This document shows positions 1,594-62,968 of a stretch of DNA of 64,000 nucleotides, one piece after another (within the stretch, counting starts at the first letter, position 1; every line of letters starts with the position of its first letter). The position numbers were made by a program, and so were the translations under genes. The notes under the pieces are model-generated. The model was not told the origin of the DNA. It was given only the letters and a program-made list of their open reading frames with translations, and did not search any database. Source of the DNA: a virus (Duplodnaviria > Heunggongvirae > Uroviricota > Caudoviricetes); the IMG/VR virus record IMGVR_UViG_3300015214_000024, positions 9,787-73,786 of that record. One strand, written 5' to 3'.

Positions 1594-1712
1594 ATTCATC
1601 ACCATTAACTATATCTGTTAAAGTTAATTTTTAGGCATAAATTTGTGACCTTTTTTTGTTGACCGCATCTTTTTTTCTGCTAGAAGGATGGGGTAACGAA
1701 GGAGATGTTAAG

Positions 1713-7717: not shown

Positions 7718-7728
7718 GGAGGTTATAA

Positions 7729-9980: not shown

Positions 9981-9983
9981 TTA

Positions 9984-10029: not shown

Positions 10030-10031
10030 CA

Positions 10032-10688
10032 ATGATGCGTTACGGAAATCTTCCCACTGATCTCGGCCTAGTGGATATCTCTCCCAAGGAGATGATGTTC
10101 CATATGTATATGCCAATCAGTCTTCCAGGATCGGATCAAGTATATCTTCCTGAGCACCTCGAAGTGTTCAAGCCCCTCGTTGTCAAGGCGTGGGAAGATG
10201 AGCGCGAACGTTTCCGCGAAGAATATGTTTACCTGACTGCCAAGACCCTTTGGGTCAGCGGCCAGTATATTGGTAATCGGCCCGGATGGCACTCAGATGG
10301 ATTCGGCACAAACGACCTCAATTATATTTGGGCCGATCGAGCGCCGACTGATTTCCTCCACAGCCGCGAGGGTTTTGAATTTGAAGGTCACAATTGTGAC
10401 CACTTCTACACCTTGTGCGATATTATGGAAGAAGATACGTGGCGGCGGGACTGTGGTCGATCCTGGAGTATCAAGCAGTTTGCTGACAAGCATTTGCTCA
10501 AGTTGGATCCGAGCGTGATCCATCGTAGCCCAGTCGACTTTGAAGATGGAATGCGTTCCTTCGCCAAGGTCAGTATCTCTCCTGACCAGTATAATCTGGA
10601 GGGTAATGCCAGCAATTACCTTTTGGATCTTGACTGGAAGATGAAACCGCGTAATGTAGATCGCAATCATCCCAACAAAAGAGACTGA
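10032..10688 (+). CDS. hypothetical protein with HxD...H motif (possible cupin/2OG-oxygenase-like)
   Basis: GWHSDG and downstream His; assignment tentative. Confidence 0.55.
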   Translation: MMRYGNLPTDLGLVDISPKEMMFHMYMPISLPGSDQVYLPEHLEVFKPLVVKAWEDERERFREEYVYLTAKTLWVSGQYIGNRPGWHSDGFGTNDLNYIWADRAPTDFLHSREGFEFEGHNCDHFYTLCDIMEEDTWRRDCGRSWSIKQFADKHLLKLDPSVIHRSPVDFEDGMRSFAKVSISPDQYNLEGNASNYLLDLDWKMKPRNVDRNHPNKRD

Positions 10689-10689
10689 T

Positions 10690-10881
10690 ATGATTTTCAA
10701 AATCACTCCCAAAACTGCGCACGAGCGAAATCGTGTGCGTGAACACGGAAATCTTTGGGAGACCTACTCTGGCAATTGTGTCACCAAAGGTGATTCAAAA
10801 CTCCTAACGTCTACCCAGACTGGATACAGCCGTTGGTGGATGAACGATCAGATAGAAAAAGTAGTTGACAACGAGGGTTGA
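10690..10881 (+). CDS. hypothetical protein (63 aa)
   Basis: overlapping start. Confidence 0.45.
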   Translation: MIFKITPKTAHERNRVREHGNLWETYSGNCVTKGDSKLLTSTQTGYSRWWMNDQIEKVVDNEG

Positions 10882-11065
10882 TTTAGCTACATTGACCTTA
10901 CCAGCGGCGGGGACGCTCAATCAACCCGGTCCTAAGCATCTGCGGACTAAAGAGGATGGCCTTACGGTGTTGGGTGTCAACACTGCCCGGGACACTGGAG
11001 GAAAGTGTGTCGCTTGTTTTGGGATCAAGATTCAAAAACCGAGGGCGAGAGTCCTGGACGAGGCA

Positions 11066-11102
11066 AAAGTCCAAGGGGAGGCAACGTGGTAAACTGCCTC
11101 CC
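11066..11102 (+). terminator. rho-independent terminator GGGGAGGCA...TGCCTCCCC + ATTTTCTT
   Basis: 9-bp GC stem plus T-rich tail. Confidence 0.7.
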
Positions 11103-11148
11103 CATTTTCTTGACTTGACTCCTTGTTGGTTTGTGCTATCAATCAAAT

Positions 11149-11478
11149 ATGAAATATCAATTCATCCTCGTCGAAATGAATGTCCCTCTGGATGACGTGA
11201 TTGGGTTCATACGTGACGATGAACGCAATTATAATCGAGTAGAAGAACCCCTCCAAATCGAAGCCGTGAAGGCTTGGCCTGGGTGTCTGGAATATATGGC
11301 AAAACCATCAAAAGCAGTCCAGGAAGCAGCCATTAGGCACAACCCAATCAACATTGGGCGCATCCGAAAACCGACCAAAGAGATTCAATTACTGGCAGTG
11401 CAGCTAGATCCTAGGGCGATCGAAATGATTGAAAAGCCTTGTGACGAAGCTAAGTCATTGGCAACACTTTTAGCTTGA
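11149..11478 (+). CDS. DUF4116-like repeat protein (109 aa)
   Basis: repeats of P..E.Q..AV...P.ai.yi pattern as in the 27.8-31.1 kb array. Confidence 0.5.
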   Translation: MKYQFILVEMNVPLDDVIGFIRDDERNYNRVEEPLQIEAVKAWPGCLEYMAKPSKAVQEAAIRHNPINIGRIRKPTKEIQLLAVQLDPRAIEMIEKPCDEAKSLATLLA

Positions 11479-11529
11479 CGGGAAATTTGTTTTTGCTATA
11501 AGCCTTGTACCAACTAGAGGAGAATGGTA

Positions 11530-11724
11530 ATGCGTACCCCCGATCAGGTCATTGCAGATCTCAAGAAGGCCGAAAAGACTGTCGAAGATGCTATCGCTGC
11601 TCGAGATCGTCTTAAGCAGGAACTGCTTGATATGGCAAAGCTCGTCAATGATGAAGTTGCGGCTATGAAGCCCAAGCCGGTTCTGGTTGCCCGGAATCAA
11701 GGCCGCACGAAGGCAGCGGCTTGA
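11530..11724 (+). CDS. hypothetical coiled-coil protein (64 aa)
   Basis: GAGGAG RBS. Confidence 0.45.
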   Translation: MRTPDQVIADLKKAEKTVEDAIAARDRLKQELLDMAKLVNDEVAAMKPKPVLVARNQGRTKAAA

Positions 11725-11748
11725 CAAATATCAAATCCGTGTTACAAT
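11721..11748 (+). promoter_or_regulatory. sigma70-like promoter TTGACA-N16-TACAAT
   Basis: near-consensus; ATG of next ORF at about +1 (leaderless). Confidence 0.5.
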
Positions 11749-11754
11749 GGTAAT

Positions 11755-12003
11755 ATGGATTTAAGTGATTTTTATGAAGAGTGCGGGAAATTGTTAGGGG
11801 TTGGCCATCAAGGCCAACCCTTTCCTTATTATAAAAGAACTCGATGGAATAACCGCACGCCTGGTCAGGGTCGATATCCTGGTCGTGGTATAATTCGAGT
11901 TTATGGTGATGTTGTCCACATTGCCCTGCAGAATCCTTCCCTATATAAAATATGCTCTCAACAAGAATGTTTGGACATATTGAGAGCTCTTGACTTGGCT
12001 TAA
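11755..12003 (+). CDS. hypothetical protein (82 aa), possibly leaderless
   Basis: ATG 7 nt after -10. Confidence 0.4.
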   Translation: MDLSDFYEECGKLLGVGHQGQPFPYYKRTRWNNRTPGQGRYPGRGIIRVYGDVVHIALQNPSLYKICSQQECLDILRALDLA

Positions 12004-12042
12004 TTTCTCCATTATGCGATGTGAATCGTAACGGAGATTCGT

Positions 12043-12213
12043 ATGAGCAAAATTTCAAGATCACTAATTATCGGTGCTTGTATGATTGCACCTGGTGGTC
12101 TTATTGCTCTAACTGCATTGGCGGTCGTCGATAAAGAGACAAGAAAGAAACTCATCGATATGAAAGACCAAGCCATCAACTATTTGAAGGAACGTGGAAA
12201 TGACAAAGATTAA
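12043..12213 (+). CDS. small membrane protein (56 aa)
   Basis: GGAG RBS; single TM; below track cutoff. Confidence 0.45.
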   Translation: MSKISRSLIIGACMIAPGGLIALTALAVVDKETRKKLIDMKDQAINYLKERGNDKD

Positions 12214-12964
12214 AGCGGCTGTTGCCATTGCCCTCTTGTGTGTTTCCACTTCTGCTATTGCCAAGAGCAGGGAGTTTTCCGATATGGAACGACTTGCCAG
12301 ACGTGGTGATATGGATGCTGAATATCGAATTGGTCTTGCATATAGGACTGGGACTGATGATGTCAGGGTGAATCCTGAAAGAGCATTGGATTGGATCCGT
12401 AGAGCAGCCCAACAGGGCCATCCAGGTGCTATTGCATTGTACGGGCTAATGCTCTATGAAGGCGATATGAAGGAACAGTCAGAGTACTGGCTTAAGATGG
12501 CTGCAACCAACGGAGATGCTCGCTCTCAGTATGTGCTCGGGCTCGAATACTGGAATGGCGGCATTGTGGAAAAAGACCCGCAAGCTGCTGTCTATTTTTT
12601 GAAACGAGCAAGTGACCAAGGGCTTGAACCAGCGCAAAAGGCTTATAACGAAGTGATGGAGGTCCTTCACCCAACGCCTGTTATCGAAACCCAAGTGGTG
12701 GAACTTGACGACACGTTGGCTGGGCAAACAACTGGCAATTATTATATCCAGCTAGGCGCTTTTAGCATCAAATCAAATGCCACAACATATTGGGATCAAA
12801 TTAAAGCCCAAATTGCTTTTGGCGATCACGAAATGAGAATTGATGACCAACGGCTTCACTTCTTGAGGGTTTACGGCTATCAAGCAGCTCAAGCCCGGAA
12901 CATTTGCAATCAGATCAAATCGCTTGGCAAAGATTGTTTAGTTAACCGCAATAAAAGCAATTGA
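12200..12964 (+). CDS. secreted Sel1-repeat protein with C-terminal SPOR (peptidoglycan-binding) domain
   Basis: signal peptide; Sel1-like repeats (AEYRIGLAY...GHPGA); SPOR-like YYIQLGAF... Confidence 0.65.
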   Translation: MTKIKAAVAIALLCVSTSAIAKSREFSDMERLARRGDMDAEYRIGLAYRTGTDDVRVNPERALDWIRRAAQQGHPGAIALYGLMLYEGDMKEQSEYWLKMAATNGDARSQYVLGLEYWNGGIVEKDPQAAVYFLKRASDQGLEPAQKAYNEVMEVLHPTPVIETQVVELDDTLAGQTTGNYYIQLGAFSIKSNATTYWDQIKAQIAFGDHEMRIDDQRLHFLRVYGYQAAQARNICNQIKSLGKDCLVNRNKSN

Positions 12965-13031
12965 CATTATTAGACACTAATGTAGGTTGGAACTGTAACG
13001 CAGTGTTACACTCTTAGCAAGGAGAAGTTGA

Positions 13032-13244
13032 ATGGAAATTGGTTCGAAGATTGATTACAAGACCCCTGGCAGTGGCCGCGGCCGTCCCTCGAGCGGCACC
13101 ATTACTGGCAAGGGCGATATGCTTACCATCGTTACCCGTCTCGGCGCCACCCTCGAAATCGACCCCAACTGGGTCATCGGAGCACACAAGGGCTCCTATG
13201 CTCGCAAGACGATCGAATCGACGGAAGCTGCGACGGCTGCCTAA
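13032..13244 (+). CDS. hypothetical protein (70 aa)
   Basis: AAGGAG RBS. Confidence 0.5.
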   Translation: MEIGSKIDYKTPGSGRGRPSSGTITGKGDMLTIVTRLGATLEIDPNWVIGAHKGSYARKTIESTEAATAA

Positions 13245-13400
13245 AAACAGCCTCAAATGACGAAGAGGGTCGGTAGAAATGCCGGCCTTTTTTGTGACTA
13301 CGTGATGGATTTGTTAACGTTAATTGATAGGGTTAATGAAAATATCCATTGACTAGACTCCTTATTTTCTTTAATGCTGGCATACAGGAGGAAATTAAGA

Positions 13401-13589
13401 ATGGATAAAGTGAAGGTTACGAACACCAACAATGGGCGGACTGTTGAGGCAGAAGTTCTCCAGCGCTCAGACAAGCGTCTCCGCGTTGTCCTTGTTGGGA
13501 CCAGCATTACCCTCACGATGACCCGAGAGGACACTCGTCGAGCATATGTGGGCAATTCCAACGGCCTCGAATTTACGAGTATGGGCTAA
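13401..13589 (+). CDS. hypothetical protein (62 aa)
   Basis: AGGAGG RBS; TTAACGTTAA palindrome upstream at 13320. Confidence 0.5.
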   Translation: MDKVKVTNTNNGRTVEAEVLQRSDKRLRVVLVGTSITLTMTREDTRRAYVGNSNGLEFTSMG

Positions 13590-13813
13590 TGGAGGAGCCC
13601 AGAACTGACTATAAACACGGAGTGAGCTTAACGCTCGTCGGACTTATGAACCGCTTCGAGCAGGGTGAAGTTACCAAAGAACAATACCTGACTGTCGTCG
13701 ACGCTCTCCAAGCAGTTTCAGTAGACGATCAGCAGAGGGATTTCTTCGACGCCATCAAGGCGCTCCTGGATAAGGTTGAAAAAGCAGTTGCTGGGGTTGA
13801 CACTGACGACTAA
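13589..13813 (+). CDS. hypothetical protein (74 aa)
   Basis: TAATG coupling. Confidence 0.5.
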   Translation: MEEPRTDYKHGVSLTLVGLMNRFEQGEVTKEQYLTVVDALQAVSVDDQQRDFFDAIKALLDKVEKAVAGVDTDD

Positions 13814-13830
13814 TATGTTAGGATGGGATT

Positions 13831-14133
13831 ATGAAAAAATTTGGGCTTATGTTGTTGGTTGTTTGGTCGTGCTATACGACCTTACTATCTATTAAGTTTG
13901 TGTTTTTCACGCACGTTCCAGCCTATAGTCATTCTGACATTGATGAAGAGATAGCAACACAAAACATAAAAAAATTCACAATGGCTACTAAACAAAATGA
14001 TAAATCTTGGGCGTGTGTTTTATCTCGAGATTTATCTGATTATTATATGAGTAAGGTAGATCAACATAATTATGATGTATGGGAAAATAACGAAAAGAAA
14101 TGGTGTGCTGACTTTAACGCATTATCCATCTAA
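13831..14133 (+). CDS. hypothetical membrane/secreted protein in AT-rich island
   Basis: low GC relative to flanks. Confidence 0.4.
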   Translation: MKKFGLMLLVVWSCYTTLLSIKFVFFTHVPAYSHSDIDEEIATQNIKKFTMATKQNDKSWACVLSRDLSDYYMSKVDQHNYDVWENNEKKWCADFNALSI

Positions 14134-14833
14134 ATCCTCCAGCTTTTAATGGATGGCCAGATTTTGTTTTCTTATTAATAGCATTTGAAATGGCGCCTTG
14201 TCCAATCCCTAAGGTTTGAGCTGCTTGTTTCATAGACTCCCATTCCTTTATAACTTCTCCAGATAAATCACACTGATAAACTCTCATACGCTGCGATTGG
14301 GCGTTCTTTCTACACAGTGCCCGAGTTTGTTCTAATTTGGATCCAGAAAGAGGTTGTGCCCAAGTTCCGTTTAAGAGCTTTGTCGCCTTGATTTTGTCTC
14401 TAACAGCTTGCCCCTTAACTGGATCATTATAAGTGGCCCTAACTGAGTCAGATCGTTTTTGAATTATTTTATCACATTCTGGATGATCGCCAATAGTATT
14501 TCCACCAGTTCCTCCTGATGTGATATTCATCAATGTTCCGTTTTTGTCAATACCCTTTCTACCATATTGAGATATCAATTCCATTTCAAAATTTAAGGCT
14601 TGCTCTTTGGATTCAAATTCAGTATAAGAGTATTCAACAGAACGTCCTTCTTTAAGGAGTTTTTTAATCTTGCGAGTTTTTCTTGGATTATAATCTTCCC
14701 CTAACCCATATCCAAGATCCTTGTCGCCCCTGGCGAATTTTTCGTGTGAATACATTCTATCACCAGTGCCGTATCCCACATAGAACGGCGTGCCTTGATC
14801 TGATAAAATATATGTATAATAAACTTTCGCCAT
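14114..14833 (-). CDS. GIY-YIG homing endonuclease with C-terminal DNA-binding region
   Basis: VYYTYIL...PFYVGYGTGDRMYSHE GIY-YIG motif; AT-rich; opposite strand to flanks. Confidence 0.75.
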   Translation of the reverse strand: MAKVYYTYILSDQGTPFYVGYGTGDRMYSHEKFARGDKDLGYGLGEDYNPRKTRKIKKLLKEGRSVEYSYTEFESKEQALNFEMELISQYGRKGIDKNGTLMNITSGGTGGNTIGDHPECDKIIQKRSDSVRATYNDPVKGQAVRDKIKATKLLNGTWAQPLSGSKLEQTRALCRKNAQSQRMRVYQCDLSGEVIKEWESMKQAAQTLGIGQGAISNAINKKTKSGHPLKAGGFRWIMR

Positions 14834-42990: not shown

Positions 42991-43096
42991 ATAAACTCCT
43001 CAAATTTCCTGTCCGCTTATATATGAAGGAGTGGCAGTGTCAACCCAAAAAGTTTAGGCTTGACGGTTTTTTTCCACTTACGTAAAAGCAGGACCT

Positions 43097-43654
43097 ATGG
43101 TAATGCGTAATCCCTCCTTGGCTGCCAGAGCCCTTGCCCAACTAGTAGATGGGTGGTCCATCTACAGCCACGGCGAGCACCTTTCTGGACATCTCAGTTT
43201 GGCTGGGTTTGAAGTAGTTAACCACGGAAATTTTGCATCAGTGGTGAACGGTTTGCCTAATCAGGTAATCAAGATTTTTGGTTTGAATGATATTGGCTAT
43301 CAGCAGTTGCTTCACGAATTCATCCATAACAAATCAGATCATTATCCAGCAGTGTACTCTTTTACTACCAGCGGTAATTATGGCATCGTGGAAATGGAAA
43401 AGCTAACACACAACACTAAAACGGCTGTTGCTATTTCAAATTACGCAGATCGTCTGAAGAGCGGTTGCTCACTTAAAAGCCATAAATGGGGAATTACGTT
43501 CAAGGATGCAGTGTTGCATCTTGATATGAAAAGTAAAGAATACAATAAGAAGCTCAAAGCAGTACAGCTTCATTGGGATGGTCACGAAGACAATATTATG
43601 TTTCGTGGAACCATCCCTGTGTTGTGTGACGTATTCTATGGTGAAAAAAATTAA
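43097..43654 (+). CDS. small protein-kinase-fold protein (PK-like; substrate unknown)
   Basis: Gly-rich loop VNHGNFASVV, Lys in VIKIFG, catalytic HxDxxxxN (HWDGHEDN), DVF(Y)G. Confidence 0.45.
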   Translation: MVMRNPSLAARALAQLVDGWSIYSHGEHLSGHLSLAGFEVVNHGNFASVVNGLPNQVIKIFGLNDIGYQQLLHEFIHNKSDHYPAVYSFTTSGNYGIVEMEKLTHNTKTAVAISNYADRLKSGCSLKSHKWGITFKDAVLHLDMKSKEYNKKLKAVQLHWDGHEDNIMFRGTIPVLCDVFYGEKN

Positions 43655-44142
43655 TTAGCGATTTGGGTATGATACTTGTTTGCTACAAGATATAGTGAAC
43701 GAGCATAATCCATCAAGGTCACAATTGATTCGTTGGATATTTTAAAAGTTCCAAGACTTGAATTAAAAGCGTGTTCTGGTTCTTTAGCGTTGTGGTACAT
43801 ACCAGTCGATTGTTTGACTACTCTGTCAGGGATCTGTTTTGTTTTAACACTTTCAATATGCACTAAGAAATCTTCCAACATCCTTTTAACTAATTCTGGA
43901 TCAAGATCAAAACTTTCTTTCATAACTTGATCAGCAGCACTCTTGATTGCCTTGACTGGTATCGGCACCTTGACATTTAAAATATTGTTGATTTTATGGA
44001 TACCGGCGCGTGCAGCCTTAGTCTTAATTGCTTGAACCAAATTCTTCACACCTTGCTTTTTGGCAATAGGATCAGCAGCCCATTCAGATTCAGGTATGCT
44101 TGCACTTACGATTTTTGTCAATTCAACTAATGGGTGCTTCAT
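43651..44142 (-). CDS. hypothetical protein (163 aa)
   Basis: ORF. Confidence 0.5.
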   Translation of the reverse strand: MKHPLVELTKIVSASIPESEWAADPIAKKQGVKNLVQAIKTKAARAGIHKINNILNVKVPIPVKAIKSAADQVMKESFDLDPELVKRMLEDFLVHIESVKTKQIPDRVVKQSTGMYHNAKEPEHAFNSSLGTFKISNESIVTLMDYARSLYLVANKYHTQIAN

Positions 44143-44513
44143 TTTACAGTTCCTGCCTTTTAGTTTTATTTATTTTCACAAGATATAGTAAAAAACAGCC
44201 GATTTAAACACAATCAGTAGATTATCTACTACATTTAGTAGTATGACACTACATCTATGTACTACATATAGTAGTGGCTCAAATAATTAAAATTCTTGCA
44301 TTTTTCACGTATCGATACATAGGATTTTTGACATTTTTTACCACATACTATATGTTGTGGTGAATAGTGCTGATTCAACACGATATAGCACAAGATATAG
44401 TAGCTAGATCTAGTTTTTGGCTTATTTCAATTTTTTTTCGTCATATTAGAAAAATCTGTTGACTCGTTCCGGCATTCATATAGAAGGGCTTGGTAATCCA
44501 AGAAGGAATCAAA

Positions 44514-45686
44514 ATGTTCAAGTTTGTCCACATTTACCACCTCGACGACGTGCGTCACGCGATCTCGGAAGACTTCTTCCTGGCAGAGCGCGATTGGGGA
44601 TATGTGATCAACTATCACATCAACGCTTTTCCGGAAATCAAGGACGAGATGAGCGACGAGGAAAAGGCGCTTGAATATGCTCGTCGTGAATTCCGCGGCA
44701 TCAAGTTTGCCAAGGATGGTACGCTGCTGGCTCGTCCGTTCCACAAGTTTTTCAACTGGGGTGAGAAGGAAGCTGAGATGGCTCAGTTCGACTTCGATAT
44801 GCCTTTCGTGATTATGGACAAGCTGGATGGTTCGATGATCCATCCGATGTTGGTGGATAACAAGATCGTGTGGTGCTCCAAGATGGGCCCGACGGATGTT
44901 GCCCTACAGGCCGAAGCGTTTGTGGGAACCCATCCGGAATATGTGGAGTTTGTGCTGGCTGCTATGGGCGGCGGCTATACTCCGATTTTTGAATGGTGCT
45001 CGCGTAAGCAGCGCATTGTGGTCGACTATCCGGAAGATGCACTGATCCTGACTGCCATCCGCGACAACCGGACTGGCGAATATGTGGGTATGCCGTCAAT
45101 GAAAGCGAAGGCTGAGCATTACGGTATCCCGGTGGTGAAGACCTGGAATGGCACCTTCAACGGCATCACGGACTTTATGGAAGCCGTTGGTGGTGAAGAG
45201 CAGTGTGAGGGTTATATCATCCGGTTCGAGAATGGCCATATGGTCAAGCTCAAGAACGCCTGGTACTTGAATCTGCACCGTGCCAAGGATCAGCTGAGCA
45301 ACGAAAAGAATGTCTACCGTCTAGTGCTCAGCGAGCATCACGATGACCTCTTGCCGCAGTTGGATCCGGATACCCGCAAGGCTCTGGAAAACTTTGCTTC
45401 TGACCTGAGCAACGCTGTGAAGGTACAAGCTGCTACGCTGGCCAACGCTGTGGCTGAGAATTGGAAGCTCTACAGCAACCGCCGTGATTTTGCTCTCAAC
45501 TTTGGTAGCAAACAGGAACTCTCCGCCGTGGTCTTCAAGATCCTGGATGGTAAGGATTCCTACGAAGCTCTTGTTGATTGGCTGCTGGCTCAGACGTCGA
45601 CTCAAGCCAAGCTGGATGCTGCTAAGAAGAAGTTCGGTCAGCTCAACTGGTCGGAATATTATTACGCGGTGGATATGGATGGCTAA
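44514..45686 (+). CDS. rnlA: RNA ligase 1 (T4 RnlA-like)
   Basis: collinear similarity to T4 Rnl1: FRGIKFA, PFHKFFNWGE, motif I IMDKLDGSM, DNRTGEY, EGYIIRFENGHMVKLKNAWY. Confidence 0.8.
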   Translation: MFKFVHIYHLDDVRHAISEDFFLAERDWGYVINYHINAFPEIKDEMSDEEKALEYARREFRGIKFAKDGTLLARPFHKFFNWGEKEAEMAQFDFDMPFVIMDKLDGSMIHPMLVDNKIVWCSKMGPTDVALQAEAFVGTHPEYVEFVLAAMGGGYTPIFEWCSRKQRIVVDYPEDALILTAIRDNRTGEYVGMPSMKAKAEHYGIPVVKTWNGTFNGITDFMEAVGGEEQCEGYIIRFENGHMVKLKNAWYLNLHRAKDQLSNEKNVYRLVLSEHHDDLLPQLDPDTRKALENFASDLSNAVKVQAATLANAVAENWKLYSNRRDFALNFGSKQELSAVVFKILDGKDSYEALVDWLLAQTSTQAKLDAAKKKFGQLNWSEYYYAVDMDG

Positions 45687-45745
45687 GGCTCGAGCCTTTA
45701 TGCTTAATGTGATGATGGTCATTATTGTGGTCATCATCACATTCA
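45676..45745. repeat. two palindromes: AAGGCTCGAGCCTT and 12-bp arms AATGTGATGATG/CATCATCACATT
   Basis: perfect inverted repeats downstream of rnlA stop. Confidence 0.45.
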
Positions 45746-46086
45746 TATTCTAATCTATAAGAGATAATGATTCATTATATCAGATCGAATGTTATCGATC
45801 TGTCAGAGTCAAATGTCGAGTGATCTGTGTGAGTGAATCAGTAAGATGAGTGTATGATTATATTCGAATCAATGGTCCTGCTCAACACCGTATCAAAAAA
45901 TATAAAATTTTTTTCACGGCCCGCAGGCCCATTATACAGTATGAAAAAATACTGTCAATAAAAAAAGGCAAAGAAAATAGAGCTTTATTCACTTTTTTTA
46001 GCAGAATTTCGAACTTTAGTCAATAAAATACGCTGGATGAATACAACTTTTTCATCCAGTCAAACTTTTAGTAATGCGAGGAAAAA

Positions 46087-46160
46087 TGTTGGTCAATGTT
46101 AGTAGATGGTGGCCAATGTTAGTAGGTGTTAGTAGAACAGAGTAGGTGTTAGTAAGTACA
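46087..46160. repeat. iteron cluster: about 5 direct repeats of GTTAGTAG
   Basis: CAATGTTAGTAG x2, GTGTTAGTAG, AGAGTAG, GTGTTAGTAAG. Confidence 0.45.
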
Positions 46161-46244
46161 TTATTATATAGCACGTCTGAAGGAAATATTTCAACCTTGT
46201 TAACGTTATTTTGTAGGGTTAACGAAAAAAAATGAAAAAAGTCA

Positions 46245-46277
46245 TTGACGGCCCTTGGTACATTTTATATAAGGGCG
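46245..46277 (+). promoter_or_regulatory. sigma70-like promoter TTGACG-N17-TATAAG(GGCG)
   Basis: upstream of MoxR-type gene. Confidence 0.4.
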
Positions 46278-46390
46278 ATGTAACGACGCAGATGCACTAA
46301 AAAATTTGCAAAATGCAAAATTAGGTGCTGACGCAGAGTTACCGAATGCGTATAACGCAATTGTTCAACCATTGAGAAGGAAGAAGTTTA

Positions 46391-47512
46391 ATGCGTCCCA
46401 TCGAAGTTTCTGAAGCAATTAGCGTTTACGCTACTGCTAACGTCCCCGTTATGCTGTGGGGACAGCCGGGCGTTGGCAAGTCGGACGTTGTCCGCCAGCT
46501 TGCTGCCAAGACCCCGGGCAAGTTCCTCAACCCGCTGACGGGCAAGAAGGAACGCAAGGTTTTCGACGTTCGCCTCGCACTGCTGGATCCGACCGACCTG
46601 CGCGGCATTCCCTACTACGACCCCGAGATGAAGACCGCCCGCTGGGGCCAGTCCTGCATCCTTCCGATGATGGGCCGTGAGGAAGACGAGGATGCTATCC
46701 TGTTCCTCGACGAGATCAACTCCGCTCCCCCGGTTATCCAGGCAGCCGCTTACCAGCTTGTCCTCGACCGCAAGGTTGGCGAATACGAGCTTCCGAAGGG
46801 CGTGACGATTATCGCTGCTGGTAACCGCCAGTCCGACAAGGGCGTGGTGTTCCAGATGCCCACTCCGCTGCTCAACCGCTTTGCCCACATTGACTTTACG
46901 GTCAGCAACGACGACTGGATCGAATTCGCGGTCGGCGCCGGCATCCACCCCAGCATCATCGGCTTCATCAACTTCAAGAAGGATATGCTCAACAAGTTCG
47001 ACAGCCGTGGCAAGAACTCCGCGTTCGCTACCCCGCGCGCCTGGGCGTTCCTGGACCGCGTTATCCGGGCTGCTGAAGCTGCTGGCACCAAGGACACGAT
47101 GATCCGCAAGCTCGCAGACGGCGTGGTTGGTGAAGGCGCTGCTGTTGAGTTTATGAGCTACCGCAAGTCCGCGGAGAAGCTTCCGAACCCGGACAGCATC
47201 CTCGATGGAACGCTGAAGAAGCTTCCGGAAGATGTCAAGCAGGATATCAGCATCCACTTTGCGCTCGTGACCAGCCTGGTTGCGGCCATCAAGGAACGCT
47301 TCGAGAACGCCAACAAGAACCCCAAGGACGAGAAGTTCGCGAAGGCTGGTGGTAACTTCCTCAAGTTCCTTAACACGGAACTCAAGGACGAGCTGACGCT
47401 GTTTGGCATCCGTTCAGCAATGAAGACTCACCAGGTTATGCTTGCTACTCTTCCCGAGTTCCGCACTGACGTTAACCAGAAGTTCCAGAAGGTGCTCTCA
47501 ATGGTTGGCTAA
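46391..47512 (+). CDS. MoxR/CbbQ/CobS-type AAA+ ATPase (AAA_5)
   Basis: Walker A GQPGVGKS, Walker B ILFLDEIN, sensor AAGN. Confidence 0.8.
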   Translation: MRPIEVSEAISVYATANVPVMLWGQPGVGKSDVVRQLAAKTPGKFLNPLTGKKERKVFDVRLALLDPTDLRGIPYYDPEMKTARWGQSCILPMMGREEDEDAILFLDEINSAPPVIQAAAYQLVLDRKVGEYELPKGVTIIAAGNRQSDKGVVFQMPTPLLNRFAHIDFTVSNDDWIEFAVGAGIHPSIIGFINFKKDMLNKFDSRGKNSAFATPRAWAFLDRVIRAAEAAGTKDTMIRKLADGVVGEGAAVEFMSYRKSAEKLPNPDSILDGTLKKLPEDVKQDISIHFALVTSLVAAIKERFENANKNPKDEKFAKAGGNFLKFLNTELKDELTLFGIRSAMKTHQVMLATLPEFRTDVNQKFQKVLSMVG

Positions 47513-51447: not shown

Positions 51448-51572
51448 TGATCATCCATCTGTTAACTTTACTAATTAACGTTAACAAAAATCAGAAGGTT
51501 TTTTCGTCGCAAAAACAAATTAGGATTGACTCTGCTTCGAATTAGCTTATAACTCTTGAACAAGGAGATTTT

Positions 51573-59190: not shown

Positions 59191-59721
59191 TTAGCTTGTG
59201 CGAGTGTGATGGGGTGGGACAAAATCCTGCCCCATCTTTTTTCTGTATTCGATTTGATGAATCGTTAACCCAGTGGCTACTGCTAATTCAGTCTTGGTCA
59301 AGTATTGACCATTATAAAAGAACGTTCTATATCGGTCCCTAAGTTTTTCTTTGTGATTTGACGACAATGTTCTACCAGCCATTGCTTTGGAAATTTTAGA
59401 TTTATGATCATCATCCATAGCCCCTCTCGTATAGCCACCGTTTCCTTTTCCTTTAGACTGGCCTTTATTATGTGCTGGCTTTCCTCGTTTTGCTTTTGAT
59501 ATTTTATTTCTAATTTCATTATTTTGGATAATGGCTCCGCTGACATTTTTATTTAACCATCGTTGATCTGATAGAAAATTATAAAATTCAGTCATTACTC
59601 GGAGCTCATTATGTAAAGCTTCTTCAGCAGTGGCGCAAGGAAATGACCATTTTACGTCAGGTAAACCATACTGCTCAATCATATTGTGGACATAAGTAGA
59701 CGATGTAAAATAAGTAGTCAT
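59191..59721 (-). CDS. homing-endonuclease-like protein with NUMOD3 repeats (possibly degenerate)
   Basis: ISKAKRGKPAHNKG and ISKAMAGRTLSSNHKEKL NUMOD3-like; AT-rich; opposite strand. Confidence 0.45.
   Translation of the reverse strand: MTTYFTSSTYVHNMIEQYGLPDVKWSFPCATAEEALHNELRVMTEFYNFLSDQRWLNKNVSGAIIQNNEIRNKISKAKRGKPAHNKGQSKGKGNGGYTRGAMDDDHKSKISKAMAGRTLSSNHKEKLRDRYRTFFYNGQYLTKTELAVATGLTIHQIEYRKKMGQDFVPPHHTRTS
59208..59242 (+). terminator. rho-independent terminator GATGGGG...CCCCATC-T6
   Basis: stem plus T-run after rIIB. Confidence 0.6.
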
Positions 59722-59921: not shown

Positions 59922-60383
59922 ATGTGTTATTCGTCGCAATATCAAATGGAGGTTGAATTGGCTACTAGCTTGGTTGATGATTATGTTTTGAACTCGCGGG
60001 TGTATCGCGATGTTAAGGCTGACATCAAACTCCAAGATGACAGTAGCCGACTCTGTTACGATGCTGAAGGCATCATCTGGGCAACAGAGCAGATCGACTC
60101 AGACATTTATTGTCCGCTCCAAGCTCTGCAGATCGACAAGGGCATTATGTATAGTGATGCTGAGGTGGATGATTCCACATATATGGCAGAACTGATGGTC
60201 AACCTAGCCACTCTTTGTGGGGGCAATTTTGCACAAGATACCTTGTGCCAATATATGTTTGATTCTGAAATGCGTGTTTGCCAAATGCGAGTAGCTGAGT
60301 CATATAAACATTTCTTTGACAAAGTATCAGATCGCAGTACAGTGTTTCCTGAGGTAGAAAGCTATCTAAAGGTGATGTCGTGA
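59922..60383 (+). CDS. hypothetical acidic protein (153 aa)
   Basis: ORF. Confidence 0.45.
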   Translation: MCYSSQYQMEVELATSLVDDYVLNSRVYRDVKADIKLQDDSSRLCYDAEGIIWATEQIDSDIYCPLQALQIDKGIMYSDAEVDDSTYMAELMVNLATLCGGNFAQDTLCQYMFDSEMRVCQMRVAESYKHFFDKVSDRSTVFPEVESYLKVMS

Positions 60384-60760
60384 CCCCGGGACAAATACAG
60401 CTCATTGTGCATAGAAGCTTGCTTCACAAGCGCACACATCGTGAAATTCAAAACAGCGAAACTATTAACTGCAATGTAAGCATTTTATTCCAGCTAATGG
60501 TTGGTGATGCTGCTGCGGTGTTTCCTGATGCAGACCATACTGCAATATTTGACCAAAGCCCATTCATTTTAGATTATGTTGATAAAATTTGTGCTCAGAG
60601 CGATCACCGCTCGGCGAAAGAGTTTATCGTCGATTTAGGATATCTTGGTTTCTACAATTTACATTATAATCTGGTATGTAAGTGGCACCAAGCCTTTAGC
60701 AAATATGAGTTTCAAAAATTACAAGAAGAAGCTCGCAATCTGATGGTGTTGATCCGATGA
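60380..60760 (+). CDS. hypothetical protein (126 aa)
   Basis: coupled. Confidence 0.5.
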   Translation: MTPGQIQLIVHRSLLHKRTHREIQNSETINCNVSILFQLMVGDAAAVFPDADHTAIFDQSPFILDYVDKICAQSDHRSAKEFIVDLGYLGFYNLHYNLVCKWHQAFSKYEFQKLQEEARNLMVLIR

Positions 60761-61101
60761 ACCCTCAGACGATTGATATGATCAATGATTGGTATGATCA
60801 TTTACCTAATGGCTACCAGGCAACATCGTCTGAATCAATCAATGAGCTTCTAGGCCTGATTGACCACTGTGTTACAGTTCTTGATCCAGACCATTCCGTA
60901 TGGCGCGAACTTGACGAATGTGAAGACTTTGTCGAGTTTATCAGTGTTGTTTCTTCCTACTGTAATATAGAAGGCACCCAATGTCTGGCAATTTTTTGCC
61001 TTGACAGGGGTCTGTCAAACTGCCAGATGGAATTTCACGAAGAAATTTACCCAGAGTATTGGTGCTCTGAAGTAGCAACGTATAGGAAGCTAGTTAGCTA
61101 A
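60757..61101 (+). CDS. hypothetical Cys-rich protein (114 aa)
   Basis: coupled. Confidence 0.5.
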   Translation: MNPQTIDMINDWYDHLPNGYQATSSESINELLGLIDHCVTVLDPDHSVWRELDECEDFVEFISVVSSYCNIEGTQCLAIFCLDRGLSNCQMEFHEEIYPEYWCSEVATYRKLVS

Positions 61102-61102
61102 G

Positions 61103-61495
61103 ATGAACAAGGACAGATTGTTTGAGCGTATGCAAGGCTTACAAGACGACATTTTCGCTCGTCTGAAAGCTTCTGACAAGCGTCACGGTGGCGATCCTTA
61201 CCCTATGATAGGGCGCAAGTTTGATAATCTTATCAACTTTATGAAATCGCTCAACATTGATCCGGATACTGATGAAAATTTTACCGTGCTGGTAGACACG
61301 CTCGGACAGACGGTTTCGCGTGAGAAGTATATGGGCCCCACTGCAATGCTAGTTTGGGTTCTGACGCTCTTAGACAAGCATTCGCTATATGAACAGATGT
61401 GGTACGTGTACCAACATTCGGATGCAAAGCATCAGCCCTCATTAGTATCGTTCCTGCCTCCGCATTATCAATCTGCTGCGATTGTTATGCGATGA
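61103..61495 (+). CDS. hypothetical protein (130 aa)
   Basis: ORF. Confidence 0.5.
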   Translation: MNKDRLFERMQGLQDDIFARLKASDKRHGGDPYPMIGRKFDNLINFMKSLNIDPDTDENFTVLVDTLGQTVSREKYMGPTAMLVWVLTLLDKHSLYEQMWYVYQHSDAKHQPSLVSFLPPHYQSAAIVMR

Positions 61496-61881
61496 AAGCA
61501 GACAAAATCATCTCAATGCTGTTGACGCAAAACCAGCAATCCTGGAAGCGACGACAGCTCTGGGGTCAAGTTCAAATTCTGGAACGGGCTATGAGCCAGT
61601 GGGAGAACCTCAAAAAGGTTTCTCCCCGCCAGCATCACATATGGTCAAAGAAATTTTGGGATATGTGCGAATGGTTTTGCATTGAGTTGACTGACCACCT
61701 TGAAATCTACAAGGCGGCTCAATTTAAAGCCCCAGGGCGGCAGCCGCCCAACTATCCCCGTTTCCTGAAAAAGCTCTACGAATTCGACTCTGACAGAGCG
61801 CATCAGCTTATGATGAAACAACCTCTTGCCTTCTCTATTGTAGAAGAGGATTGGGCGCTCTGGACCAGGATCGTTATATGA
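61492..61881 (+). CDS. hypothetical protein, tandem paralog of next gene
   Basis: shared C-terminal LYEFD...LMM..P.A motif. Confidence 0.5.
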   Translation: MKADKIISMLLTQNQQSWKRRQLWGQVQILERAMSQWENLKKVSPRQHHIWSKKFWDMCEWFCIELTDHLEIYKAAQFKAPGRQPPNYPRFLKKLYEFDSDRAHQLMMKQPLAFSIVEEDWALWTRIVI

Positions 61882-62291
61882 CGCAAGATATAGTTGAGTT
61901 AGCCTGGAAGGATCTTGATCAGATAGTTGGCCGCTATTACCGCGAGTCATTAAATGACCAAAGATTTCGCTATACCGTAGCAAAGCTGATGCCTCATATG
62001 ATTCAAATAATTGATTGGTATGGGGATCACAAAGACTACGTTGATTTCAAAACCTATCTCATAATGACGGGCGTGATAATCACTAACTACGTTGAAGTTC
62101 TTGGTGCTGCTAAAAACCTCTGTCTGGAACGTGATGGAGCGATATCAAGTCACATTAGATCCCACGATGCTCTGCTGGAACTCCTTTACGAGTTTGACGA
62201 GCAATACAGCCTTGAGCTTATGATGCAATATCCTAAAGCATATGTGGGCATCAAAGGCGAATGGGTCAATCCAGCAAAGTTCTGCCTCTAA
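61878..62291 (+). CDS. hypothetical protein, tandem paralog of previous gene
   Basis: ATGA coupling; shared motif. Confidence 0.5.
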   Translation: MTQDIVELAWKDLDQIVGRYYRESLNDQRFRYTVAKLMPHMIQIIDWYGDHKDYVDFKTYLIMTGVIITNYVEVLGAAKNLCLERDGAISSHIRSHDALLELLYEFDEQYSLELMMQYPKAYVGIKGEWVNPAKFCL

Positions 62292-62294
62292 TTT

Positions 62295-62615
62295 TTTCCT
62301 GATCAGATTAACTATATTTGTTAACGTTAACCTTTAATCCTGATTGTTAACGTTAATAAGTAACGTTAACAAAAAACCGGCTTGACTTCCAGAAAAATCC
62401 TGCTAGGCTGGACCAATGAGCTCAATCTGGGCTCGTTAACTATTGGCATTAAGGATTGGTATGGTCTGATTAACTATATTGGTTAACGCTAATGAACAGG
62501 GTTAACACAGACCGTGGTCTGATTAACTATATTGGTTAATAGTAAACGTTAACTATTAACGTTAAGGACCGCCCCTATAGTTAACCACCGCCCGATCGCC
62601 CGATCGCCCCTTGAC
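62295..62615. repeat. iteron/operator cluster: multiple TTAACGTTAA palindromes, two 24-bp direct repeats GGTCTGATTAACTATATTGGTTAA (plus a 25-bp variant with one extra T), and a CGCCCGAT triplet
   Basis: repeats visible directly; 320-bp noncoding region. Confidence 0.5.
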
Positions 62616-62968
62616 TGACTTGTAATTAATTAATTATTTTCGGCCAGCGAAGCTCTGGCCCACTTCCTGCTTGGGATGTTGAAAAGGAAAGCCCCAGAAG
62701 AACGAATGTCCTCTGGGGCTCCTTAGCAAGGAGGTTGTCACACTTGACGCTATCATTTTTCCTTAAAAGGTAATGTTTAGCTATGACTCCTACAATATAT
62801 GGCAACCTTTGAAGTCTGTCAAATAGATTTTCACCTTTTATTATTTTGAAAATAAAGAATAAAGTCGCCACCAGTCTGACTTAATTTTCGTCGCAAAAAC
62901 AAATCTACATTTAAATCAGTCAATACAGTCATTGACACACAAATCATTTTCCTATATAGGAAGCTGTA

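What the first reader, a model, noticed from the sequence alone, without database searches (positions are those of the whole stretch)
62295..62615. Dense cluster of TTAACGTTAA palindromes and 24-bp direct repeats: candidate origin or master operator
A 320-bp noncoding stretch contains at least five copies of the perfect 10-bp palindrome TTAACGTTAA (or its close variant GTAACGTTAAC). It also has two 24-bp direct repeats GGTCTGATTAACTATATTGGTTAA (a 25-bp variant with one extra T is at 62299-62323) and a triplet CGCCCGAT-CGCCCGAT-CGCCCC. Single copies of the palindrome also precede genes at 13316-13330, 46198-46212 and 51468-51482. The pattern fits a dimeric DNA-binding protein with one high-density site array, as in a replication origin, a partition site or a repressor super-operator.
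Basis: seen in the sequence. Interest (0 to 1): 0.6.

Follow-up and report, generated by a model that had tools for sequence, protein, structure and literature searches.

The report
Conserved TTAAC operator array, huge phage
A 320-bp gene-free stretch of a roughly 465-kb uncultivated phage is packed with binding sites for an unidentified DNA-binding protein around a conserved promoter; the same sites sit in front of at least six other promoters of this phage, and a matching 25-bp element occurs in many unrelated phages.

Summary
GTTAAC occurs 9 times in 266 bp against about 0.07 expected, and at background frequency elsewhere. The repeating unit is TTAAY-N7-RTTAA, with TTAA starts 13 bp apart. 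Two units form a 25-bp composite, GTTAACGTTAAT-N7-GTTAAC. Composite arrays flank an invariant sigma-70-type promoter (P1) that reads into about 200 nt with no conserved ORF. The layout is kept in relatives down to 62% rIIB identity and is more conserved than third codon positions. Array indels come in 13-nt steps. Single composites lie between a terminator and a TTGAC promoter at six other places in the 80 kb seen.

I read this as the main operator cluster of a regulon. An origin is not excluded, but there is no skew inflection, DnaA box or initiator gene.

No candidate binding protein was found. The half-site and spacing equal those of Pseudomonas HigA/GraA antitoxin operators. The same 25-mer occurs in the TTAA-rich gap regions of alphaproteobacterial phages, which are attributed to CtrA. 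Canonical CtrA spacing (TTAA-N7-TTAA) is absent here.

This is a new variant of a known kind, of moderate interest.

The parts
62300..62370 (.). Upstream operator array O_U. Hexamers: ATTAAC 62307, GTTAAC 62320, 62326 and 62346, GTTAAT 62352, GTTAAC 62365. Units TTAAC-N7-GTTAA at 62308, 62334 and 62353. Its right end lies 11 bp before the -35 box of P1.
   Evidence: Conserved in all 7 relatives. This window carries one extra 13-nt step relative to the others.
62382..62409 (+). Promoter P1: TTGACT, 16-nt spacer, then TGc-TAGGCT (extended -10; TATGCT in relatives). The transcription start near 62416 is inferred.
   Evidence: GGCTTGAC...AAAAAnCCTGCTAkGCTG is invariant in 7 relatives. Identity is 0.76-0.79 against 0.43-0.62 at third codon positions.
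62415..62437 (+). Stem-loop at the 5' end of the inferred P1 transcript.
   Evidence: It folds in 4 of 5 lineages with different stem sequences (GAGCUC/GGGCUC, GCCCA/UGGGC, GGCUC/GAGCC), with z-scores of -1.7 to -4.2.
62462..62514 (.). Downstream operator O_D1: GGTCTG-ATTAAC-N7-GTTAAC|GCTAAT-N7-GTTAAC-a-CAGACC. It is a 52-bp two-fold symmetric site centred about +71 from the inferred start.
   Evidence: Identity to relatives is 0.74-0.81. The distance between the O_U and O_D1 composites is 134-149 bp in all relatives.
62515..62566 (.). Downstream operator O_D2: a chain of hexamers 13 bp apart (ATTAAC 62522, GTTAAT 62535, GTTAAC 62548, GTTAAG 61561+1000 i.e. 62561), including the palindrome TTAACGTTAA at 62556.
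   Evidence: L007-L009 carry one extra 13-nt unit here.
62567..62610 (+). C-rich block with two GATC sites and one more GTTAAC (62580). Candidate Rho-loading (rut) region for the P1 transcript; this role is inferred.
   Evidence: 100% identical in L007 and L014, where third codon positions are 62% identical. 84% in L016. Replaced by another sequence in L015.
62611..62640 (.). AT-rich tract AATTAATTAATTATTTTC, with stop codons in all frames on both strands.
   Evidence: Conserved in 6 of 7 relatives.
62683..62822 (-). Convergent small-RNA candidate (about 105 nt, 62683-62787) with its own promoter TTGACA-17-TATATT (62822..62794). It has a terminator hairpin at 62690-62720 and the invariant sequence ACCTCCTTGCTA.
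   Evidence: (z = -4.3). A 1-nt indel in the hairpin loop breaks the 40-aa ORF in relatives.
62887..62960 (+). Motif TTCGTCGCAAAAACAAAT followed by promoter P3 (TTGACA at 62932, -10 around 62953-62960), which serves the downstream run of small genes (ATG at 62969).
1604..1628 (.). Single operator ATTAAC-N7-GTTAAA|GTTAAT. It follows a terminator (1573-1592) and precedes TTGACC (1659) and the gene ATG at 1713.
13313..13337 (.). Single composite GTTAACGTTAAT-N7-GTTAAT, upstream of TTGACT (13349) and the gene ATG at 13401.
46199..46223 (.). Single composite GTTAACGTTAT..GGGTTAAC, upstream of TTGACG-17-TATAAG (46245). Downstream lie the AAA+ (MoxR-like) and DUF2201 genes.
51461..51485 (.). Single composite in reverse orientation. 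It follows a terminator and precedes TTGACT (51526). Downstream lie the 246-aa P-loop gene, rIIA and rIIB.
   Evidence: Conserved at the same place in L014 (3827) and L016 (3804).

Best explanation
The stretch is the densest cis-regulatory node of a phage regulon.

Shown:
- The elementary site is an inverted repeat TTAAY-N7-RTTAA.
- Two such units make a 25-bp composite.
- Composites and longer 13-bp-period chains lie on both sides of a strongly conserved host-type (sigma-70-like) promoter, P1. One array ends 11 bp upstream of the -35 box. Two more lie at about +46 to +150.
- Single composites sit upstream of at least six other TTGAC promoters of the same phage, out of roughly 75 such promoters in the window.

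Inferred:
- A dimeric DNA-binding protein occupies each unit, most simply a helix-turn-helix protein whose two reading heads are about 12-13 bp apart.
- Neighbouring dimers bind cooperatively along the 13-bp lattice.
- The arrays on either side of P1, which are 134-149 bp apart, act together by looping or as a roadblock to switch P1 off or on.
- P1 makes a non-coding leader of about 200 nt or more. The leader starts with a conserved hairpin and runs through a C-rich, probably Rho-dependent, stop region. It faces a convergent small RNA.

The binding protein was not identified. It may be phage-encoded elsewhere in the 465-kb genome, or host-encoded.
For: 1. Local, non-compositional enrichment.
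2. Strict lattice. TTAA-to-TTAA distances in the hub of five genomes peak at 6, 13, 19, 26 and 32, with none at 11.
3. Array indels between relatives come in 13-nt steps.
4. Conservation above neutral. O_D1 is 0.74-0.81 identical and P1 0.76-0.79, against third-codon identity of 0.43-0.62. The spacer 62611-62682 is only 0.28-0.57 identical.
5. Sites act at the DNA level. They are palindromic and occur in both orientations relative to the downstream promoter (13313, 46199 and 62346 forward; 1628 and 51485 reverse). At the single sites they lie between a terminator and the -35 box.
6. Only about 6 of roughly 75 TTGAC-N16-18-TA promoters carry the sites, so this is a specific regulon and not a general promoter element.
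7. The same single site is kept upstream of the orthologous 246-aa gene in L014 and L016.
8. Experimental precedent for the half-site and spacing. The GraA operator AAATTAACGAATAACGTTAAGCATTCAGCTCAT contains TTAAC-N7-GTTAA and is bound by two dimers (PMC6393540). PaHigA binds TTAAC|GTTAA (PMC6987408).
9. The 25-mer recurs in 12 IMG/VR contigs, often several times per contig, and in at least 112 metagenome loci. The 'free' N7 itself carries information (t.TTAAg).
10. It also recurs in intergenic gap regions of cultured Brevundimonas, Caulobacter, Sphingomonas and Erythrobacter phages. Such TTAA clusters there were shown to regulate transcription (PMC9437464).
Against: No binding protein was found.
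- There is no Xre/HigA-like, CtrA-like or other DNA-binding domain in the 114 window ORFs. The checks were a Pfam and PHROG scan of all ORFs (only the top 25 families are listed), a crude local HTH profile built from sequences recalled from memory, and direct scans of the operator-proximal ORFs.
- None was found in the flanks of other motif-bearing loci either.

Other weaknesses:
- Most single sites lie upstream of the -35 box (site end 11-40 bp before it) and do not overlap the core promoter. This suits activation or looping better than simple repression, so the sign of regulation is unknown.
- P1's -10 box is weak in this window (TAGGCT), and its activity is inferred only.
- Only 80 kb of about 465 kb was seen, so I cannot say the hub is unique in the genome.
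- A promoter reading into conserved non-coding DNA is also what a transcription-primed origin looks like.
Confidence: 0.6

Rival explanations
1. Replication origin. Either P1 makes a primer or R-loop RNA in the downstream AT-rich/C-rich non-coding DNA, as in T4 oriF/oriG or the T7 primary origin. Or the 25-bp direct repeats are iterons for an initiator. In this reading the TTAAC-binding protein licenses or blocks firing, as CtrA does at the Caulobacter origin.
For: - An invariant promoter is followed by at least 200 nt with no conserved ORF.
- There are three 25-bp direct repeats.
- A conserved AT-rich tract lies next to a GC-rich block that holds two GATC sites.
- The minus strand of the C-rich block is G-rich.
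- The element is the only multi-site cluster in the 80 kb seen.
Against: - The same composite sits at six or more ordinary promoters.
- There is no GC-skew inflection at 62 kb. In the window the skew follows gene orientation, with a maximum near 18-19 kb and a minimum near 43-44 kb; over the 80 kb joined the cumulative curve rises through the hub without a turn.
- There is no DnaA box with one mismatch or fewer in 62292-62968.
- No initiator, helicase or primase gene is recognised next to it.
- The TGGTCTG part of the 'iteron' is not conserved in relatives. Only the TTAAC-N7-GTTAA part is.
Confidence: 0.15
2. A structured non-coding RNA. On this view the palindromes matter as RNA hairpins in the P1 transcript, for example as a protein-sponge or a regulatory leader, and not as DNA sites.
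For: - The P1 transcript region folds better than shuffles (z = -3.05).
- The 5' hairpin shows stem changes that keep pairing.
- GGUCUG...CAGACC closes O_D1 as a hairpin, and L015 has GGUUUG/CAGGCC, which could pair through G-U.
Against: - Half of the array (O_U) and all the single copies lie upstream of promoters, after terminators, and in both orientations. RNA cannot explain these.
- Any palindrome-rich DNA folds well, so the z-score is expected.
- There is no Rfam match.
- The outer stem is absent in L016.
Confidence: 0.07
3. A centromere (parS-like partition site) or a packaging (pac/cos) recognition site, made of repeated binding sites for ParB or for the small terminase.
For: It is a dense array of short palindromes in one place. 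TGTTAACGTTAACA loosely resembles the style of parS and KorB operators; this comparison is from memory and was not tested.
Against: - No ParA, ParB or terminase gene lies nearby.
- Copies are scattered in front of promoters.
- The array brackets a promoter and sits in an early-gene-like region of small ORFs next to rIIA and rIIB.
Confidence: 0.04

Closest known systems
Operators of the HigA/GraA antitoxins (Xre-type HTH) of Pseudomonas aeruginosa and P. putida (PDB 6JPI, 6LB3; PMC6987408, PMC6393540)
   Same: - The central palindrome is identical: TTAAC|GTTAA.
- The dimer-sized unit is the same: TTAAC-N7-GTTAA, with TTAA starts 13 bp apart. An example is the GraA operator AAATTAACGAATAACGTTAAG.
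- Each operator has four half-sites taken by two dimers.
- Single palindromes in front of other promoters are also used (mvfR, nadA, pelA).
   Different: - In higBA/graTA the two inverted repeats interleave with a 7-bp offset, and the operator lies in the promoter of the antitoxin's own operon.
- Here the units are mostly tandem with a 19-bp offset. In the general 25-mer they interleave with a 6-bp offset.
- Here they form long arrays around a non-coding promoter.
- No HigA-like gene was found in the 80 kb seen.
TTAA-rich 'gap regions' and terminal repeats of phages of Alphaproteobacteria, bound by host CtrA (Mascolo et al. 2022, PMC9437464)
   Same: [quoted passage not shown]
- The very same 25-mer (24 or 25 of 25 bases) occurs in the gap regions of Brevundimonas phages Leszy, Poludnitsa and Delta, Sphingobium phage Lacusarx and Caulobacter phiCbK-like phages.
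   Different: - The defining CtrA dyad TTAA-N7-TTAA (11-bp spacing) is absent from the hub. It occurs once in the whole 64 kb, which is chance level.
- TTAACCAT half-sites are not enriched.
- The host is unknown. NCBI binned the contig as 'Gammaproteobacteria bacterium', and the rII proteins resemble those of T4-like and Vibrio phages.
gal operon OE/OI (GalR repressosome), and lambda OL/OR-type multi-operator looping
   Same: Two operator sets bracket a promoter, here at about -65 and +71. They are separated by 134-149 bp in all relatives. The site is palindromic with a central CG step.
   Different: There is no LacI/GalR-family protein in view. Extra 13-bp-period chains of sites are present. 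Looping is inferred only.
T4 oriF/oriG and the T7 primary origin (promoter plus downstream unwinding element)
   Same: A conserved promoter reads into conserved AT-rich, non-coding DNA in the early region of a large lytic-type phage.
   Different: The binding sites are shared with ordinary promoters. There is no evidence of priming or of a skew change.

Membership tests
HigA/GraA-type antitoxin operator | Central palindrome TTAAC|GTTAA (core TAACGTTA) | tested here: met
   There are 3 exact copies and 3 near copies in the hub, and 2 exact copies elsewhere.
HigA/GraA-type antitoxin operator | Dimer unit TTAAC-N7-GTTAA (half-sites about 12-13 bp apart) | tested here: met
   16 strand matches against 0.32 expected. 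The spacing histogram peaks at 13.
HigA/GraA-type antitoxin operator | Two inverted repeats interleaved with a 7-bp offset, giving a 24-28 bp operator encircled by two dimers | tested here: not met
   Hexamer starts lie at -13, 0, +6 and +19, so the units are tandem with a 19-bp offset. The general 25-mer has a 6-bp offset.
HigA/GraA-type antitoxin operator | The operator lies in the promoter of a higBA/graTA operon, or next to an Xre-HTH gene | tested here: not met
   No Xre, HigA or HigB hit in the window, in relatives or in other motif-bearing loci. Only 80 of 465 kb was seen.
HigA/GraA-type antitoxin operator | Bound by a HigA-family protein | not testable with these tools
   This needs EMSA or DAP-seq.
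CtrA-binding-site cluster of alphaproteobacterial phages | Canonical dyad TTAA-N7-TTAA(C), and/or the half-site TTAACCAT | tested here: not met
   TTAA-N7-TTAA: 1 in 64 kb and none in the hub. TTAA-N7-TTAAC: 0. TTAACCAT: 2, about chance.
CtrA-binding-site cluster of alphaproteobacterial phages | One intergenic region with a strongly skewed, high density of TTAA sites | tested here: met
   18 TTAA in 320 bp. It is the only cluster in 80 kb. The same 25-mer is present in the Leszy and Delta gap regions.
CtrA-binding-site cluster of alphaproteobacterial phages | The host is an alphaproteobacterium encoding CtrA | tested here: inconclusive
   Cultured-phage matches in unannotated DNA are all from alphaproteobacterial phages. 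However, the NCBI bin label is Gammaproteobacteria, and the nearest rIIA/rIIB relatives are T4-like and Vibrio phages.
Replication origin (iteron or DnaA type) | Iterons plus an adjacent initiator gene, DnaA boxes and a strand-skew switch | tested here: not met
   Direct repeats are present, but only their TTAAC-N7-GTTAA part is conserved. There is no DnaA box, no skew inflection and no initiator domain nearby.
Transcription-primed phage origin (T4 oriF/G, T7) | A promoter followed by a non-coding unwinding element in which the transcript primes DNA synthesis | tested here: inconclusive
   The promoter and the non-coding AT-rich tract are present. Priming cannot be tested with these tools.
Mycobacteriophage L5-type stoperators | Many asymmetric sites within transcribed regions, in one orientation relative to transcription | tested here: not met
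   The sites are symmetric, occur in both orientations, and lie upstream of promoters.

The most novel reading that the evidence does not exclude
The 25-bp TTAA lattice (two TTAAY-N7-RTTAA units) may be the operator of a regulator that has not been recognised and that is shared by many phage lineages. It would then also account for TTAA repeats spaced at distances other than 11 bp in the CtrA 'gap regions' of Brevundimonas and Caulobacter phages. The binder could be an Xre/HigA-type protein. It could even be the host's HigA-family antitoxin, which would couple phage early transcription to the state of a toxin-antitoxin defence. In this huge phage the hub could additionally gate an RNA-primed origin.
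Probability: 0.15. Interest if true: 0.75.

Novelty: new variant of a known kind. Interest (0 to 1): 0.5.

Why it matters
Gene regulation in huge, uncultivated phages is almost unknown. This locus gives a concrete and testable regulatory circuit:
- a defined 25-bp operator;
- a small regulon of about 7 promoters out of roughly 75 in the 80 kb seen;
- a conserved hub with a non-coding promoter and a convergent small RNA.

The same operator turns up in more than 100 unrelated metagenomic loci and in cultured alphaproteobacterial phages. In those cultured phages, TTAA clusters are currently attributed to CtrA alone. The strict 13-bp lattice instead matches the geometry solved for HigA/GraA antitoxins. 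Identifying the binding protein would show whether a second factor acts in those 'gap regions'. It would also show whether phages read host antitoxin or cell-cycle regulators to time their early genes.

Tried and rejected
- **Compositional artefact.** Rejected. GTTAAC outside the hub is at its expected frequency.
- **GenBank phage DNA match to the locus.** None found. A 19-mer and a 26-mer from the hub gave only chance hits or no hits in IMG/VR and GTDB genomes.
- **Rfam.** Nothing but a spurious mir-155 hit on the palindromes.
- **The 40-aa minus-strand ORF 62634-62756.** Rejected as coding, because a 1-nt indel breaks the frame in relatives.
- **HIP1-type cyanobacterial repeat as an explanation for CGATCGCCC.** Not enriched.
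- **TAGCAAGGAGG as a general phage RBS targeted by the small RNA.** Not enriched.
- **Search for the binding protein.** All of the following gave nothing convincing:
  - Pfam and PHROGs on flanking genes and on all 114 ORFs;
  - a local HTH profile;
  - ORFs of other motif-rich contigs.
  The only lead is a 115-131-aa protein of unknown fold that sits directly beside paired 25-mers in six loci of another phage group, with homologues in two more.
- **Formal covariation count on the P1 hairpin.** The alignment was not structurally consistent, so single-sequence folds were used instead.
- **Host inference.** The rIIB tblastn search was uninformative.
- **Motif of the Caulobacter/phiCbK XRE factors.** It is given only in a figure and could not be read.
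Full report
**What the sequence is**

The window is part of a very large uncultivated phage.
- The protein encoded just upstream of the finding is found, identical, on a 465,559-bp ENA contig and on a 152,714-bp Logan contig.
- Those loci match the window at 99.98% identity and extend it 8.3 kb to the right.
- A second look-up extends it 7.6 kb to the left.
- The window holds rIIA- and rIIB-like genes, RNA ligases, a MoxR-like AAA+ ATPase with a DUF2201 partner, and a DUF932 gene.
- It also holds three tRNA genes, one with an amber-reading anticodon, and many small ORFs of unknown function.
- No GenBank phage matches the locus at the DNA level.

**Checking the observation**

- The exact palindrome TTAACGTTAA occurs 5 times in the window against 0.03 expected. 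Three of these are in the 320-bp stretch.
- GTTAAC occurs 9 times within 266 bp. Elsewhere there are 17 copies, against about 17.7 expected from base composition.

So the signal is a local cluster and not a genome-wide bias.

**Anatomy**

The stretch is the left half of a 677-nt gene-free region (62292-62968). It lies between two runs of small plus-strand genes.

The repeating unit is not the 10-bp palindrome as such. It is the inverted repeat TTAAY-N7-GTTAA, which gives 11 places and 16 strand matches against 0.32 expected.
- Hexamers of the GTTAAC type sit at relative positions -13, 0, +6 and +19. This gives a 38-bp two-fold symmetric site whose core is the 25-mer GTTAACGTTAAT-N7-GTTAAC.
- In the hub of five genomes, distances between TTAA tetramers pile up at 6, 13, 19, 26 and 32 bp. 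There are none at 11 bp.

One such array (O_U, 62300-62370) ends 11 bp before a promoter, P1. P1 reads TTGACT, then 16 nt, then TGc-TAGGCT (62382-62409). Downstream of P1 come, in order:
- a hairpin (62415-62437);
- a lone GTTAACTAT;
- a second array (O_D1, 62462-62514);
- a chain of hexamers 13 bp apart (O_D2, 62515-62566);
- a C-rich block with two GATC sites (62567-62610);
- an AT-rich tract with stop codons in every frame (62611-62640).

Further right lie a convergent small-RNA candidate with its own promoter and terminator (62683-62822, minus strand) and promoter P3 for the downstream genes.

**Comparative evidence**

Relatives were found through the flanking 137-aa protein (88% identity) and through rIIB (81%, 67% and 62% identity). 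All have the same long gene-free region with the same order of parts.

| Segment | Identity to L007 / L014 / L015 / L016 |
|---|---|
| rIIB third codon positions (rough neutral yardstick) | 0.62 / 0.62 / 0.51 / 0.43 |
| O_D1 | 0.81 / 0.74 / 0.75 / 0.75 |
| P1 | 0.76 / 0.76 / 0.79 / 0.79 |
| C-rich block | 1.00 / 1.00 / 0.34 / 0.84 |
| Spacer 62611-62682 | 0.57 / 0.56 / 0.35 / 0.28 |

- Length differences inside the arrays come in 13-nt steps. This window has one extra step in O_U. L007-L009 have one extra in O_D2. L010 has a 13-nt duplication in O_U.
- The two composites that bracket P1 are 134-149 bp apart in every relative.
- The hairpin after P1 folds in four of five lineages with different stem sequences.

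**A regulon, not a general promoter feature**

The window contains about 75 TTGAC-N16-18-TA promoter-like sites, and they are strongly co-oriented with the genes. Only a handful carry TTAAC sites upstream.

Single composites lie at 1604-1628, 13313-13337, 46199-46223 and 51461-51485. Two more lie in the 7.6 kb left of the window.
- Each sits downstream of a terminator-like hairpin or in a divergent gap, 11-40 bp (about 75 bp at one site) before a TTGAC -35 box.
- Three are in one orientation and two in the other relative to the promoter. This argues for a symmetric DNA-binding protein and against an RNA signal or a promoter element.
- The site in front of the 246-aa gene that leads into rIIA and rIIB is kept in L014 and L016.

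**Origin or operator?**

Evidence against an origin:
- GC skew in the window follows gene orientation, with a maximum near 18-19 kb and a minimum near 43-44 kb. Nothing changes at 62 kb.
- There is no DnaA box with one mismatch or fewer in the hub.
- No initiator-type gene is recognisable nearby.
Only its TTAAC-N7-GTTAA part is.

Evidence that keeps an origin possible: an invariant promoter that reads into about 200 nt of conserved non-coding DNA, next to an AT-rich tract, is also how transcription-primed phage origins look. I therefore keep the origin as the main rival at 0.15 and do not exclude a dual role.

**Who binds?**

I could not find the protein. Four kinds of search gave no DNA-binding domain:
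- Pfam and PHROG scans of the flanking genes, and of all 114 window ORFs as a batch;
- direct scans of the genes behind each operator;
- a crude local HTH profile;
- scans of other motif-rich contigs.

The batch scans list only the top 25 families. The local profile was built from sequences recalled from memory. The negative result is therefore weak. About 385 kb of the genome was also not seen.

Two literature links bear on the identity of the binder.

*First link: HigA/GraA antitoxins.*
- TTAAC|GTTAA is exactly the palindrome bound by the Pseudomonas aeruginosa antitoxin HigA.
- The operator of its P. putida homologue GraA is AAATTAACGAATAACGTTAAGCATTCAGCTCAT. It contains TTAAC-N7-GTTAA, and two dimers take four half-sites.
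- Half-site and spacing therefore match a solved Xre-type HTH geometry.
- The arrangement of the two units differs: tandem with a 19-bp offset here, interleaved with a 7-bp offset there.

*Second link: CtrA clusters in alphaproteobacterial phages.*
- The 25-mer is widespread. It occurs in 12 IMG/VR contigs; one 16-kb contig has 10 copies.
- It occurs in only 28 loci in 596 Gb of bacterial genomes, roughly the chance number.
- Over 144 distinct sites the unconstrained N7 has its own consensus, t.TTAAg. This shows a third TTAA in the full element.
- In cultured phages, the 25-mer consensus matches at most one mismatch short (26 of 28 bases) and our 62346 copy matches 24 of 25 bases in unannotated, non-coding DNA of Brevundimonas, Caulobacter, Sphingomonas, Sphingobium and Erythrobacter phages. 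In phage Leszy it is repeated about five times in a 1.2-kb gap between divergent genes.
- Mascolo et al. (PMC9437464) described exactly such TTAA-dense gap regions. They showed that host CtrA binds canonical TTAA-N7-TTAA sites there and controls adjacent genes. They noted that only 12 canonical TTAA-N7-TTAA sites are formed among the 30 TTAA repeats in phage Delta.
- In our phage the canonical 11-bp dyad is absent: one copy in 64 kb and none in the hub. TTAACCAT is at chance level.

So the hub resembles the known CtrA clusters in kind and shares their 25-mer, but it fails their defining feature. My reading is that the 13-bp lattice is read either by a factor other than CtrA or by CtrA in an undescribed mode. 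I cannot decide between these.

Host identity is also open. The motif points to Alphaproteobacteria. The NCBI bin label (Gammaproteobacteria) and the rII relatives point elsewhere.

**Most likely mechanism** (inferred unless stated)
- Dimers of a TTAAC-specific protein bind each TTAAY-N7-RTTAA unit and cooperate along the 13-bp lattice.
- At ordinary promoters, a single composite at about -50 to -90 tunes a host-RNA-polymerase promoter.
- At the hub, arrays at about -65 and at +46 to +150 act together on P1, by looping or as a roadblock.
- The P1 RNA is a non-coding leader. It carries a 5' hairpin and a C-rich, G-poor segment that would suit Rho loading. It faces a convergent small RNA.
- Whether the protein activates or represses, and whether the hub also serves replication, cannot be told from sequence.

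**Verdict**

Among its three options the operator reading is best, the origin reading remains possible, and the partition reading has no support.

The element is a new variant of a known kind: phage operator networks, and TTAA-dense regulatory gap regions. Its distinctive points are the strict 13-bp lattice identical to HigA/GraA geometry, the absence of canonical CtrA dyads, its setting in a roughly 465-kb phage, and a 25-bp composite shared with many unrelated phages.

Noticed in passing
window 62683-62822 (minus strand): Candidate small RNA of about 105 nt. It has its own conserved promoter (TTGACA-17-TATATT), a terminator hairpin that keeps pairing through sequence changes, and the invariant sequence ACCTCCTTGCTA, which resembles the anti-Shine-Dalgarno end of 16S rRNA. 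Fold z = -4.3. It is convergent with P1.
   Followed up: partly
window 5495-5572 (+): A tRNA with anticodon CTA (amber-reading; ARAGORN labels it tRNA-Pyl). Rfam did not call it at the gathering threshold. It is a possible suppressor tRNA in a huge phage.
   Followed up: no
whole window: About 75 TTGAC-N16-18-TAnnnn promoter-like sites, strongly co-oriented with the genes. Nearly every small gene seems to have its own host-type promoter.
   Followed up: partly
window 51503-51520 and 62887-62904 (exact); variants at 7129, 50523, 59930: A second conserved motif, TTCGTCGCAAAAACAAAT, lies upstream of the -35 box at 51503 and 62887 (5 and 27 nt before it; the context of the three variants was not examined). 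There are 5 matches against 0.06 expected. It is kept in 6 of 7 relatives upstream of P3.
   Followed up: partly
window 62567-62610: The C-rich block GGACCGCCCCTATAGTTAACCACCGCCCGATCGCCCGATCGCCCC is 100% identical in relatives whose third codon positions are only 62% identical. In L015 it is replaced by the perfect palindrome GTTAGCGTTCGAACGCTAAC. In L016 its GATC part pairs with a downstream G-rich copy.
   Followed up: partly
window 59787, inside ORF 59191-59721 (minus strand): A 2-nt indel relative to the same phage from other samples (L005, L006). It shortens a homing-endonuclease-like ORF from 213 to 176 aa.
   Followed up: no
window 43000-46400: The cumulative GC-skew minimum and the switch of gene orientation lie here. 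So do long gene-free stretches (44143-44489, 45687-46390) with GTTAGTAG-type repeats at 46090-46160 and one operator copy at 46199. By skew, this is a better origin candidate than the hub.
   Followed up: no
window 59922-62291: Six tandem small genes (114-153 aa) just upstream of the hub. At least the last two are clear paralogues, sharing a C-terminal LYEFD...LMM..P.A motif. Six window ORFs hit the same PHROGs of unknown function (5925, 17056, 25923); which six was not shown.
   Followed up: partly
L026 (IMGVR_UViG_3300010368_000237), 1-14780: An unrelated phage contig with 86 GTTAAC, 10 copies of the 25-mer, 37 TTAACCAT and 60 TTAA-N7-TTAAC in 14.8 kb. These lie in short gaps between small genes. 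It has an extreme density of CtrA-type and lattice-type sites together.
   Followed up: partly
L027, L065, L079, L082, L108, L124 checked (homologues also in L139, L149): In another phage group, a 115-131-aa protein of unknown fold (...SIALKTLHDDIV...TTKQMR..LR...) is encoded directly beside paired 25-mers in the six loci checked; two further loci carry a homologue whose position was not checked. It is a candidate autoregulated binder. No homologue was seen in this window.
   Followed up: partly
L030 and L042 (Chlorogloeopsis fritschii PCC 6912 chromosome): A 63-nt tandem repeat in a cyanobacterial chromosome. Each unit contains GTTAACGTTAATAAG(A/G)AACGTTAAC.
   Followed up: no
window 13032-13244 (+): A 70-aa protein behind a promoter that has a lone GTTAAC upstream. 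It contains an AT-hook-like GRGRP motif.
   Followed up: no
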